This document shows, in pieces, positions 20,958 through 24,507 of a DNA stretch of 64,000 nt. The stretch lies in contig JBJLHG010000002.1 in assembly GCA_045564455.1 (NCBI GenBank), positions 39,877-103,876 of the forward strand, given 5' to 3'. A program made the translations under genes and the position numbers. The DNA is from Gammaproteobacteria bacterium (lineage in GTDB: Bacteria; Pseudomonadota; Gammaproteobacteria; Magnimaribacterales; AG-339-G14). Position 1 is the stretch's first letter. Each line of letters starts with the position of its first letter. The notes under the pieces were generated by a model. It searched no databases. It saw nothing but the letters and a program-made list of their open reading frames with translations, and was not told the origin of the DNA.

Positions 20958-21566
20958 ATGGAGCTATTAAACACCGTTAAGGGTTTCCTTGACAATTCTG
21001 AAGGGAAAAAACTTGCAGAATTAATTGATCTAACTGCTCACATAGGCCCAGCTTTAGAGATAGGCAGTTATTGTGGCAAGTCTGCACTAGTTTTCGGGAA
21101 CGCATGCAAACAAAATAATTCATTTATATTTACTGTTGACCATCATACTGGCTCTGAAGAGCATCAAATAGGAGAGGAATATCATGATCCAGATCTCTAT
21201 GACATTCGATTAGATAAATTTAATACTCTGCCTGAGCTTTTAAAAAATATTCGCGAATTTTCTTGCCAAAATAATATCATTCCTGTTGTTGGGAACTCGT
21301 CTAAAATTGCGAAAAGTTGGAAAACGCCTCTAGGGCTTCTTTTTATTGATGGAGGTCATAGCATGGATGCTGCACTAAAAGACTATCAAGGATGGAATGA
21401 ATTTATTCTTCCAAATGGAATATTAGCTATTCATGATGTTTTTCCTGACCCTAAAGATGGAGGCAGGCCCCCTTATGAAATCTATTGTCTTGCACTTCAA
21501 TCCGGAAATTATGAAGAATTAGAAATAGTTGATTCTTTAGCAATTCTAAAAAAAATTAATCACTAA
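20958..21566 (+). CDS. Class I SAM-dependent methyltransferase (Methyltransf_24-like)
   Basis: ALEIGSYCGKS, TVDHHTGSEE, LLFIDGGH, AIHD. Confidence 0.85.
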   Translation: MELLNTVKGFLDNSEGKKLAELIDLTAHIGPALEIGSYCGKSALVFGNACKQNNSFIFTVDHHTGSEEHQIGEEYHDPDLYDIRLDKFNTLPELLKNIREFSCQNNIIPVVGNSSKIAKSWKTPLGLLFIDGGHSMDAALKDYQGWNEFILPNGILAIHDVFPDPKDGGRPPYEIYCLALQSGNYEELEIVDSLAILKKINH

Positions 21567-22557
21567 AAAAATTTGAAGATTCAGAGAAGCCATAAAGTGA
21601 ATTGGCGGCTAATATAACTGCAGCTGCTGTCCAACTTGGTTTTTCTTCGGGCCAGTATTTTTTATCCTTAAATACATAACCTGTCCAAAATAGTTTACTC
21701 TCTGGATCTGCTAGAGCGCAGACGTTAGAAAATATTTCTTCTGCTTTCTTTTTTTCAGACATCTTTACCAATGTTAAAACAAGTTCGCATGATTCGGCTG
21801 CAGTAACCCATGGTTCTTCTTCAACACATTTGCATCCTAAACCTTGCACAACAAATTCATCCCATCTTGCATCTATCCTTAATTTGGCTTCGTTATCAGA
21901 GATAATCCCGCAAAGAATAGGATAATACCAATCCATGCTATACCTATCTTTACTTTTCCAGTTCCTGTCGAATCGTTGTGACTTGTTTTTAATAGCATTA
22001 AACAACCAATTTGTTTCTTTTTCATATATTTTTTCTGAAAATCCAAGCTCAAAAGAAATTTTTTGAAAACACAACAAGCTTTTATATATTGAAGAGCAGC
22101 CAGTCAAAAGAGAGTCATCCATCCAGTCATTATTCTCATCTTTTGCCCAAAGAATATCTCCATCTTTTGTCTGGCCCGATACAACAAACTCCATGGCTTT
22201 CGATATTGTTGGCCATAGATCTTTTAAAAATTGTTTATCTTTAAAATTTAAAAAATGGTGCCATGCTCCTGTTGCAATATAAGCAGCAAAATTTGTTTCT
22301 TTTTTTAAATTAACTGCTTTATCACCTAGATATTCCGAAAACCACGAACCATCTTTTTCTTGAGAATTTTTTAACCAATCATAAGCTTTTATTGAATTAG
22401 ACTGAAAACCTAAAACATCCAAACCCATTGCTGATTCAACATGATCCCAAGGATCTATTTTACTTTTGGGTTCCCATGCAATAACTCCACCCTTGCCTTG
22501 ACAAGAAATTATGTACGCTCCCAAATGATGATAAGAATCTATTGAGTTCTTTATCAT
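21556..22557 (-). CDS. (alpha/alpha)-barrel protein of unknown function (family often labelled prenyltransferase-like)
   Basis: DPWDHVESAM, QEKDGSW, ETNFAAYIA, SMDWYYP, PWVTAAESCE, PSWTAAAV helical repeats. Confidence 0.65.
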   Translation of the reverse strand: MIKNSIDSYHHLGAYIISCQGKGGVIAWEPKSKIDPWDHVESAMGLDVLGFQSNSIKAYDWLKNSQEKDGSWFSEYLGDKAVNLKKETNFAAYIATGAWHHFLNFKDKQFLKDLWPTISKAMEFVVSGQTKDGDILWAKDENNDWMDDSLLTGCSSIYKSLLCFQKISFELGFSEKIYEKETNWLFNAIKNKSQRFDRNWKSKDRYSMDWYYPILCGIISDNEAKLRIDARWDEFVVQGLGCKCVEEEPWVTAAESCELVLTLVKMSEKKKAEEIFSNVCALADPESKLFWTGYVFKDKKYWPEEKPSWTAAAVILAANSLYGFSESSNFFSD

Positions 22558-23268
22558 CTATTTATCCATTTTTTCGAAATATAAAACTACACTTTTGCCA
22601 ATCAAAGGCTGTAAAACAAATTCTAGAATTTTAGTTATTAAAGGCTTTTTCATCATATCCCAAACTAAAAAACGGTGATAGAGATTAATGATTCTTGAGC
22701 TTTCCTTGGAATTCCACATAAGACATTGAAGCCACCAATAAGGAGAATGCAACGCATGGGCCCAATGACGTTTTTTGAATTTCAAACCTAAAGACAATAT
22801 AGAATTTTTTAATTCTTTATACTTAAATATCCTTACATGTCCACCAGGTGTATTTTGATAGTCGATACTTAGTTTCCAGCAGATCCATTCTGGGAAGAAC
22901 TTAGGAACACTAACTGCCATTTTTCCATTTGATTTTAAAACTCTGCTTATCTCTTTTAACGCTTCTTGATAATCAAGAATATGCTCTAAAACCTCTGAAC
23001 AAATTATGTAATCGAAAGTTTCATCTGCAAAAGGTAATTTTGTAGCATTCGCAACACCAAATTTACAAAGTTTTGAATTATTATTTTCATCAAACTCATC
23101 AAAATTTTTTTCAGCTACTTTTATATCTGACAAGCTCATGTCAAATCCAAACACATCAATATTTGCCGACATATAAGCGCCAAAACAATGTCTGCCTTGG
23201 CCGCAACCTAAATCTAGAAATTTCTTTTTTGGCTCAAAATTAAAATTGTCAAAATTTATAGTTTGCAT
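22558..23268 (-). CDS. Class I SAM-dependent methyltransferase
   Basis: FLDLGCGQGRH, LPFADETFDYIICSEVLEHI, GGHVRIF, HALHSPYWWL. Confidence 0.88.
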   Translation of the reverse strand: MQTINFDNFNFEPKKKFLDLGCGQGRHCFGAYMSANIDVFGFDMSLSDIKVAEKNFDEFDENNNSKLCKFGVANATKLPFADETFDYIICSEVLEHILDYQEALKEISRVLKSNGKMAVSVPKFFPEWICWKLSIDYQNTPGGHVRIFKYKELKNSILSLGLKFKKRHWAHALHSPYWWLQCLMWNSKESSRIINLYHRFLVWDMMKKPLITKILEFVLQPLIGKSVVLYFEKMDK

Positions 23269-24507
23269 TTAATTTTCTAACCTTTTAATTTCTGTTTCAT
23301 ACATTTGTGTTGCTCTAATTGCCACTTCCTTCCATTGCAAATCTTTTTGAATTCTTTGAAATCCCTTTTCAGCTAAAGTATTTTTTAAGTCTTCGTTTGG
23401 AAGTAATTTCAAAATAGCCTCTTCAAGTTCTTTTGAGCTTCCAGGATTCACTATCATGCCACAATCTTTAATTACTTCAGGAATTGCCCCTCCTGAAGTA
23501 GTGATTACAGGAACTTTGCAAGCCATCGCCTCACCCACAGCAAAACCGAATCCTTCATAAAGAGAGGGTATAGCTACTATATCGGCGGAACAATAAAGAT
23601 CTCTTACTTCTTTAAAAGATAAATTTTTATTAAACGTTATAGCGCTCTCTATATTTAATTTTTTAATCAACCTTTTTGTATGGCCTCCTTTTTTAGAGCC
23701 GCCAATAATTTGAAGCGTTGCATCACTATGAACTTTTTTAATTCGGGCAAAAGCTTTCAACAAAAAGTCTAGACCTTTGAGAGGAACATCAGCACTTGCT
23801 GTAGTAACTATTCTAAAAGGAACCTTTTTAACGTTCTTATCTGCATAATATGCTTCTGTATCTATTCCATTTAAGATCACATTCATTACTGATTTTTTTA
23901 AACCAAAATCTTTATGGATATCGTTTTTAGAAGACTCCGATACGACAATAATCGATTTAAGTTTTCGCGCTACTTTGATTTGCATTCTAAGAAATGAATG
24001 CCATCGAATCATCAGCATTTTTAAAAAAATAGACTTTGTACTTTTAAGTTGAAATTTTAAATCTTTTGAAATTGGATGATGAATGGTGGTCACTAAAGGC
24101 ATTCTTTTTTGGAAATAAATCAGTTCATAACAAAGGCTTTGATTATCATGAATTACATCAAACTCATTTAGTCTATTTTTTAAAAGCTTTTTAATTCTTT
24201 TTCCAAAAGTATAAGGTTCTGAAAAGCCGCCAGAATTTATACTAGTCCACTCAAAAAAATTAATAGGATTTAAAAGCTTTTTAAGTTCGACATCTCTAAA
24301 TTTATTTTCTTTCGAATATAAATCCAAACTAGGGACTTCTTCAAGAGCAATTCCTTCAAATAAGTCTGGATAAGGAGGTCCTGAAAATACAGTAACTTGG
24401 TGTCCTAGTTCTTTCAAAGCTTTGGTCATATATTTTACATATATTCCTTGTCCTCCAGAAAAAGGATTACTGCGATAACTGAGAAATGCTATCCGAAGTT
24501 TTCTCAT
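23269..24507 (-). CDS. Glycosyltransferase family 4 (GT-B)
   Basis: IAFLSYRSNPFSGGQGIYV, KGLDFLLKA, PSLYEGFGFAVGEAMAC (EX7E). Confidence 0.92.
   Translation of the reverse strand: MRKLRIAFLSYRSNPFSGGQGIYVKYMTKALKELGHQVTVFSGPPYPDLFEGIALEEVPSLDLYSKENKFRDVELKKLLNPINFFEWTSINSGGFSEPYTFGKRIKKLLKNRLNEFDVIHDNQSLCYELIYFQKRMPLVTTIHHPISKDLKFQLKSTKSIFLKMLMIRWHSFLRMQIKVARKLKSIIVVSESSKNDIHKDFGLKKSVMNVILNGIDTEAYYADKNVKKVPFRIVTTASADVPLKGLDFLLKAFARIKKVHSDATLQIIGGSKKGGHTKRLIKKLNIESAITFNKNLSFKEVRDLYCSADIVAIPSLYEGFGFAVGEAMACKVPVITTSGGAIPEVIKDCGMIVNPGSSKELEEAILKLLPNEDLKNTLAEKGFQRIQKDLQWKEVAIRATQMYETEIKRLEN

What the first reader, a model, noticed from the sequence alone, without database searches (positions are those of the whole stretch)
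20958..24507. Uncharacterised four-gene cassette: GT4 glycosyltransferase, methyltransferase, (alpha/alpha)-barrel enzyme, second methyltransferase
Three genes are abutted with 0-nt gaps and lie 9 nt behind ilvE. A second methyltransferase converges on them with an 11-nt overlap. All four keep dense family motifs (LSYRS..GGQG.YV; GGHVRIF...HALHSPYWWL; DPWDHVE; DHHTGSEEHQ). From memory, unverified, the same four families co-occur in actinobacteria with no assigned product. Keeping four dedicated enzymes in a genome that has shed hfq and pilMNOPQ from their loci implies strong selection. In Pseudomonas the slot after ilvE holds LPS core genes, and waaA/lpxL lie 3-5 kb away. My hypothesis is a pathway making a doubly methylated glycoside, either an envelope glycolipid or a compatible solute.
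Basis: partly seen in the sequence, partly recalled or inferred. Interest (0 to 1): 0.75.

Follow-up and report, generated by a model that had tools for sequence, protein, structure and literature searches.

The report
Methylmannose polysaccharide gene cluster in SAR86
The four genes are not an unknown pathway but the proteobacterial (SAR86) counterpart of the mycobacterial gene cluster that makes and recycles 3-O-methylmannose polysaccharide, a cytoplasmic lipid-binding sugar polymer. The papers available here describe that cluster only from Actinobacteria.

Summary
In detail: coordinates, 0-nt junctions, the 9-nt gap after ilvE, the 11-nt convergent overlap and all quoted motifs check out.

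The label "uncharacterised" is wrong. All four proteins are full-length homologues (38-45% identity, E 1e-69 to 1e-100) of the Mycolicibacterium hassiacum MMP cluster:
- ManT, an alpha-(1->4)-mannosyltransferase (PDB 7QSG)
- pMeT3, a putative 3-O-methyltransferase
- MmpH, an MMP endomannosidase (PDB 7QSJ)
- MeT1, a 1-O-methyltransferase (PDB 6G7D)

Gene order and the convergent meT1 are the same as in M. hassiacum. The mutagenesis-validated catalytic residues of ManT and MmpH are conserved.

The window comes from a SAR86 gammaproteobacterium. The cassette is intact in at least 11 SAR86 species, in other Gammaproteobacteria and in Parvibaculaceae. These proteobacterial copies separate from all actinobacterial copies (200/200 bootstraps), and the genes are under strong purifying selection.

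The most likely product is an MMP-like cytoplasmic polymethylated mannan. Its role is inferred to be buffering of fatty acids or acyl-CoA in a beta-oxidation specialist.

Caveats:
- A putative guanine contact in ManT (Asp293) is not conserved in SAR86.
- GDP-mannose supply was not testable.
- In Gammaproteobacteria the cassette sits inside the LPS-core locus.

Verdict: a known pathway in a new phylum, currently mis-annotated. Moderate interest.

The parts
23269..24507 (-). manT: GT4/GT-B alpha-(1->4)-mannosyltransferase homologue (412 aa)
   Evidence: phmmer to PDB 7QSG (M. hassiacum ManT) gives E 3.1e-83 over residues 4-410; the next best PDB hit is 1e-17. BLASTP to M. hassiacum ManT (P0121): 38% identity, 1e-100. 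Gly15, His142, Lys240, Glu313-Gly314-Phe315 and Glu321 are conserved (window G18, H143, K244, YEGF, GEAMA). The putative guanine contact Asp293 is Phe here.
22558..23268 (-). meT3: class I SAM methyltransferase, homologue of the putative MMP 3-O-methyltransferase pMeT3 (236 aa)
   Evidence: BLASTP to the gene between manT and mmpH in M. hassiacum (L081:7230-7961): 44% identity over the full length, 2e-79. This includes the family-specific C-terminal half (GGH[VI]RI, HALHSPYWW, LVWD) that generic methyltransferases lack. It holds the same position in all loci. Natural MeT3-MmpH fusion proteins exist (P0479, P0535).
21556..22557 (-). mmpH: (alpha/alpha)6-barrel MMP endo-alpha-(1->4)-mannosidase homologue (333 aa)
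   Evidence: phmmer to PDB 7QSJ (MmpH) gives E 2.4e-77. BLASTP to L081:7948-9027: 39% identity, 2e-88. The catalytic base Glu262, the acid candidates Asp47 and Asp50, and Trp49, Asn101, Phe102, Glu265 and Trp315 correspond to window E255, D35, D38, W37, N89, F90, E258 and W309. All are invariant in alignment A1 (residue roles from PMC9883506).
20958..21566 (+). meT1: Methyltransf_24 homologue of the MMP reducing-end 1-O-methyltransferase MeT1 (202 aa), convergent with mmpH and overlapping it by 11 nt
   Evidence: phmmer to PDB 6G7D/6G80/6H40 gives E 7.7e-57 over residues 3-199. That chain has the same sequence as the gene next to mmpH in M. hassiacum (L081:9060-9716, the MeT1 position per PMC9883506): 45% identity, 6e-69. 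The blocks DHH.GSEE.Q, F.DGgH and iHDVfP.p.d.G are conserved in at least 97% of 62 homologues.
24517..25440 (-). ilvE (context only): 9 nt upstream of manT on the same strand, so co-transcription is likely
   Evidence: NF005146 3.4e-124; junction read from the sequence. The ilvE-cassette adjacency recurs in SAR86 loci L001-L005, while other SAR86 species have LPS-core genes inserted in between. No function in the pathway is implied.
20047..20934 (-). alpha/beta hydrolase (uncertain member): divergent from meT1 with a 23-nt spacer
   Evidence: Abhydrolase_6 / Hydrolase_4. It neighbours meT1 in 10 SAR86 loci at 37-68% identity, but is absent from the Parvibaculum, Streptomyces and M. hassiacum clusters. 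This may be synteny only.

Best explanation
The cassette is the SAR86 version of the four-gene methylmannose polysaccharide (MMP) biosynthesis and recycling cluster known from nontuberculous mycobacteria and Streptomyces.

By homology, the pathway would run as follows. ManT extends alpha-(1->4)-mannooligosaccharide primers from a nucleotide-mannose donor (GDP-mannose in mycobacteria). MeT3 O-methylates position 3 of the added mannoses. MeT1 caps the free reducing end with a 1-O-methyl group. MmpH cuts mature chains internally into 4-8-mers that ManT and MeT1 use to build daughter chains, the 'partially conservative replication' described in mycobacteria. All four proteins are predicted to be soluble and cytoplasmic, so the product should be an intracellular polymethylated mannan.

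Its probable role is to bind long-chain fatty acids or acyl-CoAs, and possibly to aid cold adaptation, in an organism whose carbon metabolism centres on beta-oxidation.

Shown here: orthology of all four genes, identical cluster architecture, conservation of the mutagenesis-validated catalytic residues, purifying selection, and deep vertical inheritance in SAR86.

Inferred: the identity of the product, the sugar donor, and the physiological role.
For: (1) PDB sequence searches give ManT 7QSG 3.1e-83, MmpH 7QSJ 2.4e-77 and MeT1 6G7D 7.7e-57. The paper confirms what 7QSG and 7QSJ are.

(2) Direct BLASTP against the M. hassiacum cluster on L081 gives 38/44/39/45% identity end to end for ManT/pMeT3/MmpH/MeT1.

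(3) L081 has the same layout: manT-pmeT3-mmpH on one strand, with meT1 convergent.

(4) Catalytic and binding residues whose mutation abolishes or severely reduces activity (ManT E313, E321, K240; MmpH E262, D47, D50) are conserved, as are G15, H142 and the MmpH subsite residues.

(5) The four genes are linked in SAR86, in a 59%-GC gammaproteobacterial MAG and in Parvibaculum. In Streptomyces, manT-meT3-mmpH are contiguous and meT1 lies about 2.4-5.6 kb away.

(6) A neighbour-joining tree of ManT+MmpH+MeT1 (886 sites) puts the proteobacterial copies on one side of a split from all actinobacterial copies in 200/200 bootstraps. SAR86 copies are 48-83% identical to each other over these sites, and the cassette's GC (0.31-0.36) equals that of its neighbours. 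It is therefore old and native, not a recent transfer.

(7) dN/dS against the nearest species is 0.05-0.13.

(8) None of the four has a transmembrane segment or signal-like N-terminus.

(9) Natural MeT3-MmpH fusion proteins tie the least-characterised enzyme to the pathway.

(10) Beta-oxidation is described as central to SAR86 carbon metabolism (PMC11582366; PMC3358033). MMP is proposed to sequester fatty acyl-CoA, and a mycobacterial mutant lacking it grows more slowly at 15 C (PMC9883506).
Against: No chemistry has been done: MMP has not been reported from any proteobacterium in the papers searched.

The ManT residue modelled to read the guanine of GDP-mannose (Asp293) is Asp in all actinobacterial sequences and two of three alphaproteobacterial sequences checked (Phe in MAG L041). 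It is Phe in the window and variable (F/R/E/H/T) across the SAR86 and other gammaproteobacterial sequences checked, so the donor could differ.

GDP-mannose synthesis could not be checked. The window holds only a PMM/PGM (25485-26861), whose position next to argB may be ancestral.

pMeT3 activity is itself only putative in mycobacteria.

In every gammaproteobacterial locus the cassette lies within or next to LPS inner-core genes (GT9, WaaG-like, WaaP, hldE, lpxL, waaA), which leaves room for an envelope link.

The lipid-buffer role is debated even in mycobacteria, where it was defined with FAS-I, which Gammaproteobacteria are not known to have (textbook knowledge; not checked here).
Confidence: 0.75

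Rival explanations
1. In Gammaproteobacteria the cassette has been recruited to the envelope. It would make a 3-O-methylmannose-containing glycan that is attached to, or co-assembled with, LPS as an outer core or O-chain-like polymer.
For: The cassette sits inside the LPS inner-core locus in several gammaproteobacterial lineages. In L009 the order is GT9, GT4, WaaP, cassette, hldE, lpxL, epimerase, waaA. L006 and L013 are similar. In L030 waaA directly follows meT1. In the window lpxL and waaA lie 3-5 kb away. A precedent for poly-3-O-methylmannose in LPS exists: the Oligotropha carboxidovorans O-chain, cited in PMC9883506.
Against: MeT1 methylates the reducing-end 1-OH, which is incompatible with a reducing-end linkage to lipid or core. 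MmpH and the other three proteins are predicted cytoplasmic. No Wzm/Wzt-type ABC exporter, WbdD-type terminator, ligase or polyprenyl-phosphate priming enzyme was seen beside the cassette in any locus annotated. The same four genes occur in Actinobacteria, which have no LPS, and in Parvibaculum with flanks unrelated to LPS. In the window's lineage GT9, waaP and hldE are gone from the locus while the cassette stays.
Confidence: 0.12
2. It is an MMP-like pathway whose product differs chemically from mycobacterial MMP, for example in nucleotide-sugar donor, chain length or an extra modification.
For: Asp293 of ManT is not conserved in the SAR86 and other gammaproteobacterial sequences checked. 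Leu317 is Phe in most of the proteobacterial sequences checked (Leu in L030). Overall identity to the characterised enzymes is only 38-45%. Streptomyces griseus already makes an acetylated variant. A conserved alpha/beta hydrolase flanks meT1 in SAR86 only.
Against: Every residue shown by mutagenesis to matter, and the whole MmpH substrate cleft, are conserved. Asp293's role is modelled, not tested. All four enzymes are retained together, which argues for the same reaction logic.
Confidence: 0.1
3. One reading: a novel pathway for a small, doubly methylated glycoside that serves as a compatible solute or envelope glycolipid.
For: Two methyltransferases and one GT are present. MeT1's first described substrate was a dimethyl-mannobiose.
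Against: ManT does not elongate methylated mono- or dimannosides and needs acceptors longer than three mannoses. An endo-acting hydrolase specific for the polymer is conserved with its cleft intact. No lipid-carrier or acyltransferase gene belongs to the conserved set. The pathway is already characterised.
Confidence: 0.03

Closest known systems
MMP (3-O-methylmannose polysaccharide) gene cluster of nontuberculous mycobacteria: ManT/pMeT3/MmpH/MeT1 (M. hassiacum MHAS_04402-04405; Maranha et al. 2023, PMC9883506; Ripoll-Rozada et al. 2019, not readable here)
   Same: The same four families, the same gene order, the same convergent meT1, full-length homology (38-45% identity) and conserved catalytic residues.
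   Different: The host is a 32%-GC streamlined marine gammaproteobacterium rather than an actinobacterium. Genes are packed with 0-nt gaps and an 11-nt 3' overlap, and are probably co-transcribed with ilvE. ManT Asp293 is Phe. The locus is embedded in an LPS-core and pantothenate neighbourhood. Gammaproteobacteria are not known to have FAS-I (textbook knowledge; not checked here). The product has not been observed.
Streptomyces MMP-type clusters (S. griseus makes acetylated MMP, per PMC9883506)
   Same: manT-meT3-mmpH are contiguous, at 39-44% identity to the window proteins.
   Different: meT1 lies about 2.4-5.6 kb away, with unrelated genes in between in the one locus annotated (L022: luciferase-like monooxygenase, amidase). 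Streptomyces keeps ManT Asp293.
Mycobacterial 6-O-methylglucose lipopolysaccharide (MGLP) pathway
   Same: It works like this one: a cytoplasmic polymethylated polysaccharide proposed to sequester acyl chains.
   Different: Different sugar, different enzymes and acylated. No homology was tested or claimed here.
ABC-transporter-dependent polymannose O-antigens with methyl caps (E. coli O8/O9a WbdA-D; recalled from memory) and the Oligotropha carboxidovorans poly-3-O-methylmannose O-chain (cited in PMC9883506)
   Same: GT4 mannosyltransferases plus a methyltransferase, with an LPS-locus context in Gammaproteobacteria.
   Different: Those polymers have alpha-(1->2)/(1->3) linkages, grow on a lipid carrier and need Wzm/Wzt export. 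None of these features was found here, and MeT1 and MmpH have no counterpart there.

Membership tests
MMP biosynthetic gene cluster (ManT/pMeT3/MmpH/MeT1) | Four genes co-located in the order manT-meT3-mmpH, with meT1 adjacent | tested here: met
   Window ORFs compared with the M. hassiacum locus L081: identical order and strands. Linkage holds in the related loci.
MMP biosynthetic gene cluster (ManT/pMeT3/MmpH/MeT1) | ManT: GT4 GT-B enzyme specifically related to 7QSG, with Gly15, His142, Lys240, Glu313 and Glu321 | tested here: met
   E 3.1e-83 to 7QSG against 1e-17 or weaker for every other solved GT4 (PimA 2.7e-5, MshA 2.3e-11). All five residues are conserved.
MMP biosynthetic gene cluster (ManT/pMeT3/MmpH/MeT1) | ManT donor recognition: Asp293, modelled to contact guanine N2 (a putative feature, not mutated and not defining) | tested here: not met
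   Phe in the window and F/R/E/H/T across the SAR86 and other gammaproteobacterial sequences checked. Asp in all actinobacterial sequences and in two of three alphaproteobacterial sequences checked (Phe in L041). The donor nucleotide therefore remains an inference.
MMP biosynthetic gene cluster (ManT/pMeT3/MmpH/MeT1) | MmpH: (alpha/alpha)6 barrel with catalytic base Glu262, acid candidates Asp47/Asp50 and the conserved cleft (Trp49, Asn101, Phe102, Glu265, Trp315) | tested here: met
   E 2.4e-77 to 7QSJ. All these residues are invariant in A1. The fold itself is inferred from homology; no model was built.
MMP biosynthetic gene cluster (ManT/pMeT3/MmpH/MeT1) | MeT1: homologue of the 1-O-methyltransferase solved as 6G7D | tested here: met
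   E 7.7e-57 and 45% identity over the whole length. The catalytic residues could not be checked by name because the 2019 paper is not held.
MMP biosynthetic gene cluster (ManT/pMeT3/MmpH/MeT1) | pMeT3: orthologue of the methyltransferase between manT and mmpH | tested here: met
   44% identity over the full length, including the C-terminal family-specific half. MeT3-MmpH fusions exist. Its 3-O-methyltransferase activity is unproven even in mycobacteria.
MMP biosynthetic gene cluster (ManT/pMeT3/MmpH/MeT1) | Cytoplasmic, soluble enzymes | tested here: met
   The maximum Kyte-Doolittle 19-residue window score is 0.87-1.36, and no N-terminus looks like a signal peptide. This is a crude test.
MMP biosynthetic gene cluster (ManT/pMeT3/MmpH/MeT1) | The organism actually contains MMP (alpha-(1->4)-linked 3-O-methylmannose, 1-O-methyl aglycon) | not testable with these tools
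   This needs chemistry on a culture or on biomass.
MMP biosynthetic gene cluster (ManT/pMeT3/MmpH/MeT1) | Supply of GDP-mannose (ManA/ManB/ManC) | tested here: inconclusive
   Only a PMM/PGM is in the window (25485-26861). No guanylyltransferase was found among the window ORFs scanned (most of those of 120 aa or more).
ABC-transporter-dependent polymannose O-antigen pathway | Wzm/Wzt exporter, WbdD-type chain terminator and a lipid-carrier primer encoded with the GT genes | tested here: not met
   None was found among the neighbours annotated in the window, L006, L009, L013, L012 and L030.

The most novel reading that the evidence does not exclude
SAR86, one of the most abundant heterotrophs of the surface ocean, together with Parvibaculaceae and other marine and soil Alphaproteobacteria, makes an intracellular MMP-type polymethylated polysaccharide. 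This would be the first outside Actinobacteria. It would be an ancient, nearly universal trait of the order, kept through genome streamlining because it chaperones fatty acids or acyl-CoAs in a beta-oxidation-based lifestyle. [quoted passage not shown]
Probability: 0.5. Interest if true: 0.7.

Novelty: new member of a known kind. Interest (0 to 1): 0.5.

Why it matters
MMP is treated in the papers read here as a peculiarity of mycobacteria and a few actinomycetes, and its gene-cluster survey covered actinobacterial genomes only.

Finding the intact, selected cluster as an old component of SAR86 and of several Alphaproteobacteria has four consequences:
- It widens the taxonomic range of polymethylated polysaccharides to Gram-negative bacteria, which are not known to have FAS-I or mycolic acids. 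The polymer's function therefore cannot be specific to either.
- It corrects the public annotation. SAR86 and alphaproteobacterial MmpH homologues are named 'prenyltransferase' or 'hypothetical protein', and the others carry generic names. MmpH may also be the 'sga1 glucoamylase' counted in 21 of 22 SAR86 genera.
- It gives marine microbiologists a concrete, testable link between a conserved gene set and the lipid-centred metabolism of SAR86. A first SAR86 isolate now exists (PMC11582366).
- It offers small, divergent orthologues for settling the still unproven 3-O-methyltransferase step.

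Tried and rejected
- The 2019 MeT1 paper could not be read by DOI or PMC id, and searching for its PDB codes found nothing relevant. MeT1 catalytic residues are therefore given only as conserved blocks.
- NCBIfam has no specific model for any of the four proteins. 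All hits are far below the curated cut-offs.
- Promoter and terminator scans of 19900-25700 found no more sites than shuffled sequence (15 against 21.8 expected; 4 against 3.1), so transcription units are inferred from spacing only.
- I looked for extra conserved partner genes. The inserts between ilvE and manT in other SAR86 species are LPS-core genes. The Streptomyces mmpH-meT1 gap (one locus, L022) holds unrelated genes. Parvibaculum flanks are unrelated. None is a fifth member of the cluster.
- Recent horizontal transfer from Actinobacteria is rejected. The proteobacterial copies separate from all actinobacterial copies in 200/200 bootstraps, the SAR86 copies are deeply diverged, and GC is native.
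- A catabolic reading, degradation of imported methylated mannan, is rejected because a GT and two SAM methyltransferases are anabolic and no transporter is linked.
- No structure prediction was run, because sequence identity to three solved structures already fixes the folds.
- Literature searches found no paper linking methylmannose or MMP with SAR86, Parvibaculum or Gammaproteobacteria. This covers only the library held.

Full report
**What is in the sequence**

- A 412-aa GT4 glycosyltransferase (23269-24507, minus strand).
- A 236-aa class I methyltransferase (22558-23268, minus).
- A 333-aa protein (21556-22557, minus).
- A 202-aa Methyltransf_24 protein on the plus strand (20958-21566).

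Junctions read from the DNA give 0-nt gaps between the three minus-strand genes, 9 nt between the ilvE stop and the GT start, and an 11-nt overlap of the two convergent 3' ends. Pfam confirms the family calls. NCBIfam offers nothing specific. The quoted motifs are present and fall in the most conserved blocks of their families. The cassette's GC (0.31-0.36) matches its neighbours.

**What it is**

Sequence searches against solved structures gave the identification.
- The GT matches 7QSG at E 3.1e-83. The next best solved GT4 scores 1e-17.
- The 333-aa protein matches 7QSJ, 'methylmannose polysaccharide hydrolase (MmpH)', at E 2.4e-77.
- The plus-strand methyltransferase matches 6G7D/6G80/6H40 at E 7.7e-57.

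Maranha et al. 2023 (PMC9883506) state that 7QSG and 7QSJ are ManT and MmpH of the Mycolicibacterium hassiacum MMP cluster. That cluster consists of ManT (MHAS_04402), pMeT3 (04403), MmpH (04404) and MeT1 (04405).

I retrieved a contig carrying the M. hassiacum ManT sequence through ManT itself (P0121). Its layout is manT 6001-7236(+), pmeT3 7230-7961(+), mmpH 7948-9027(+) and meT1 9060-9716(-). This is the same order and the same convergent meT1 as in the window.

Direct BLASTP of window against M. hassiacum proteins gives:

| Protein | Identity | E-value |
|---|---|---|
| ManT | 38% | 1e-100 |
| pMeT3 | 44% | 2e-79 |
| MmpH | 39% | 2e-88 |
| MeT1 | 45% | 6e-69 |

All alignments run end to end. 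For pMeT3, which has no solved structure, the match includes the C-terminal half (GGH[VI]RI, HALHSPYWW, LVWD) that generic class I methyltransferases lack.

**Active sites**

For MmpH the paper names Glu262 as the catalytic base (the alanine mutant is dead). Asp47 and Asp50 are the candidate acids. Trp49, Asn101, Phe102, Glu265 and Trp315 line the cleft. These correspond to window E255, D35, D38, W37, N89, F90, E258 and W309, and all are invariant in an alignment spanning SAR86 and M. hassiacum.

For ManT, Gly15, His142, Lys240, Glu313-Gly314-Phe315 and Glu321 are conserved in the window and in all 17 sequences checked. Alanine mutants of Lys240 and Glu321 are inactive, and the Glu313 mutant has drastically reduced activity.

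There is one difference. Asp293, which the authors model as a possible contact to guanine N2 of GDP-mannose, is Asp in all actinobacterial sequences and in two of three alphaproteobacterial sequences checked (Phe in MAG L041). It is Phe in the window and varies (F/R/E/H/T) across the SAR86 and other gammaproteobacterial sequences checked. The residue was never mutated, so it does not define the family. It does mean that the donor nucleotide is inferred here, not shown.

**Host and distribution**

The single genome-collection scan, run with an MmpH alignment, returned 594 confirmed relatives, of which the best 80 were kept. The closest are SAR86 cluster bacteria: 13 loci, with MmpH 46-76% identical to the window's. 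Then come 'Gammaproteobacteria' and 'Pseudomonadales' MAGs, Parvibaculum, Parvibaculaceae and Rhodobiaceae, and then Streptomyces and other actinomycetes.

Members of the window proteins' own 90% clusters carry names such as '[SAR86 cluster bacterium]'. The exact MmpH protein occurs on 25 contigs from metagenome assemblies, the longest 831,588 bp.

tblastn of the four window proteins against all 80 loci shows the following.
- manT-meT3-mmpH with convergent meT1 is present in every SAR86 locus long enough to show it, in the 59%-GC MAG L030, and in Parvibaculum.
- In Streptomyces the first three genes are contiguous and meT1 lies about 2.4-5.6 kb away.

A second search seeded with a Parvibaculaceae MmpH found many alphaproteobacterial homologues, including Parvularculales and Pyruvatibacter sp. 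NCBI names them 'prenyltransferase'. The exhaustive representative search counts 167 clusters (50% identity level) at E<=1e-30 and 711 at E<=1e-10. Two of the representatives (P0479, P0535) are natural fusions of a full-length MeT3 to MmpH. This is independent evidence that the least-characterised enzyme belongs to the pathway.

**Evolution**

A neighbour-joining tree of concatenated ManT+MmpH+MeT1 (886 ungapped sites, 21 taxa) puts the proteobacterial copies on one side of a split from all actinobacterial copies in 200/200 bootstraps. SAR86 copies form deep branches, 48-83% identical to the window over these sites. Monophyly of the gammaproteobacterial copies is not supported (17/200), so relationships inside the proteobacterial clade remain open.

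Against the two nearest species, dN/dS is 0.05-0.13. Synonymous sites are near saturation, so these values are rough. Together with the native GC, this indicates an old, vertically kept and selected trait of SAR86 rather than a recent import.

**Genomic setting**

SAR86 loci L001-L005 share the window's order: PMM, ilvE, cassette, alpha/beta hydrolase (and panB where the contig extends far enough). Other SAR86 lineages have LPS inner-core genes around the cassette.
- L013: ilvE, GT9 heptosyltransferase, cassette, hydrolase, hldE.
- L006: GT9, FkbM methyltransferase and WaaP kinase before the cassette, and hldE after it.
- L009: GT9, a WaaG-like GT4, WaaP, cassette, hldE, lpxL, an epimerase, waaA.
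- L030: waaA directly follows meT1.

In the window, lpxL and waaA are 3-5 kb away, but GT9, waaP and hldE are absent from the locus.

I read this as an old insertion into the glycan-gene region between ilvE and waaA, later pared down in the window's lineage while the cassette was kept. It also keeps an envelope-linked rival alive. Four observations count against that rival.
- MeT1 caps the reducing end, which cannot then be linked to a lipid or to the core.
- All four proteins lack membrane segments and signal-like N-termini.
- No exporter, terminator or priming enzyme accompanies the cassette in any annotated locus.
- The same four genes exist in Actinobacteria, which have no LPS, and in Parvibaculum without LPS neighbours.

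**How it most likely works**

By homology with the mycobacterial system:
1. ManT adds alpha-(1->4)-mannose to primers of at least three to four mannose units.
2. MeT3 methylates O-3.
3. MeT1 methylates O-1 of free reducing ends.
4. MmpH cuts mature 11-14-mers into 4-5-mers and 7-8-mers, which seed new chains.

Orthology, architecture, residue conservation and selection are shown here. The product, the donor and the role are inferred.

For the role, the best available lead is the proposed sequestration of fatty acyl-CoA and the cold-growth defect of the M. smegmatis mmpH mutant. This can be set against the finding that beta-oxidation is central to SAR86 carbon metabolism (PMC11582366; PMC3358033). 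I give about 0.9 to 'orthologous MMP-type cluster', 0.7 to 'makes an MMP-like polymer', and 0.4 to the lipid-buffer role.

**Novelty**

The pathway is known, so this is a new member of a known kind, not a new system.

What appears to be new is the host range. The 2023 survey searched actinobacterial genomes only. No held paper connects methylmannose or MMP with SAR86, Parvibaculum or Gammaproteobacteria. Public names for the proteobacterial proteins are generic or wrong.

One further lead is untested. The SAR86 pangenome study reports a single-copy 'COG3387 sga1 glucoamylase, GH15' in 21 of 22 genera and in the isolate HIMB1674. MmpH is a GH15-like barrel with a weak hit to an 'oligosaccharide amylase' model. 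That gene may be mmpH, in which case the cassette is close to universal in the order and is present in a culture.

[quoted passage not shown] A contribution from an abundant MMP producer is conceivable but purely speculative.

**Limits**

- Only one genome-collection scan was allowed, and it depended on two peptide patterns, so prevalence within SAR86 cannot be counted from it.
- GDP-mannose synthesis could not be assessed beyond the PMM/PGM next to ilvE.
- Operon structure rests on spacing alone, because consensus promoter and terminator scans were uninformative.

Noticed in passing
PMC11582366 Table S5 (external); window 21556-22557: The SAR86 pangenome paper counts a single-copy 'COG3387 sga1 glucoamylase (GH15)' in 21 of 22 SAR86 genera and in isolate HIMB1674. 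This may be the MmpH homologue under a wrong name, which would make the cassette near-universal in the order and present in a culture.
   Followed up: partly
L009:413-12360; L006:698-9146; L013:3113-9856; L030:7660-8994: In Gammaproteobacteria the MMP cassette is embedded in the LPS inner-core locus (GT9 heptosyltransferase, WaaG-like GT4, WaaP kinase, hldE, lpxL, epimerase, waaA). The window's lineage has lost GT9, waaP and hldE from this locus but kept the cassette.
   Followed up: partly
P0479 (590 aa), P0535 (606 aa): Natural fusion proteins with a full-length MeT3-type methyltransferase at the N-terminus and MmpH at the C-terminus (40-42% identical to the window MeT3). P0541 (459 aa) seems to join an MmpH N-terminal part to a GT4 C-terminal domain; this one was not examined.
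   Followed up: partly
L012, L015 (MmpH): Parvibaculaceae MmpH homologues read DPWNH instead of DPWDH. Asp50, one of the two candidate catalytic acids, is Asn, which favours Asp47 as the acid.
   Followed up: no
window 20047-20934: An alpha/beta hydrolase (Hydrolase_4 / lysophospholipase-like) is divergent from meT1 with only 23 nt between the start codons. It neighbours the cassette in 10 SAR86 loci but in no other group.
   Followed up: partly
window 48645-53666: A complete rRNA operon on the minus strand (16S 52133-53666, 23S 48847-51759, 5S 48645-48758). The 373-nt 16S-23S spacer has no tRNA gene, and ARAGORN finds no tRNA in the whole 64 kb.
   Followed up: yes
window 61441-62133: A DksA homologue carries an N-terminal extension of about 110 aa that matches histone-H1/HC2-like Lys/Ala-rich proteins.
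   Followed up: no
window 11008-13999 and 28311-31250: miaA lies directly next to hflK-hflC (no hfq or hflX), and mrcA (PBP1A) directly next to aroK-aroB (no pilMNOPQ).
   Followed up: partly
window 43159-48608: A CobS-like AAA+ and CobT-like VWA pair with no other cobalamin genes nearby. It is followed by an AurF-like di-iron oxygenase, a 2OG-Fe(II) oxygenase and a Fumble-type (type II-like) pantothenate kinase.
   Followed up: no
window 38647-42262 and 14089-15711: Lipid-related neighbours elsewhere in the window: a TonB-dependent receptor, an acyl-CoA thioesterase II (41387-42262) and an AMP-binding acyl-CoA-synthetase-like gene (14089-15711).
   Followed up: no
cluster members P0397, P0411, P0424 (MBV13248.1, MBV13249.1, MBV13251.1): Proteins at least 90% identical to the window's ManT, MeT3 and MeT1 are deposited under a 'Flavobacteriaceae bacterium' MAG. 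This is probably a mis-binned SAR86 contig.
   Followed up: no
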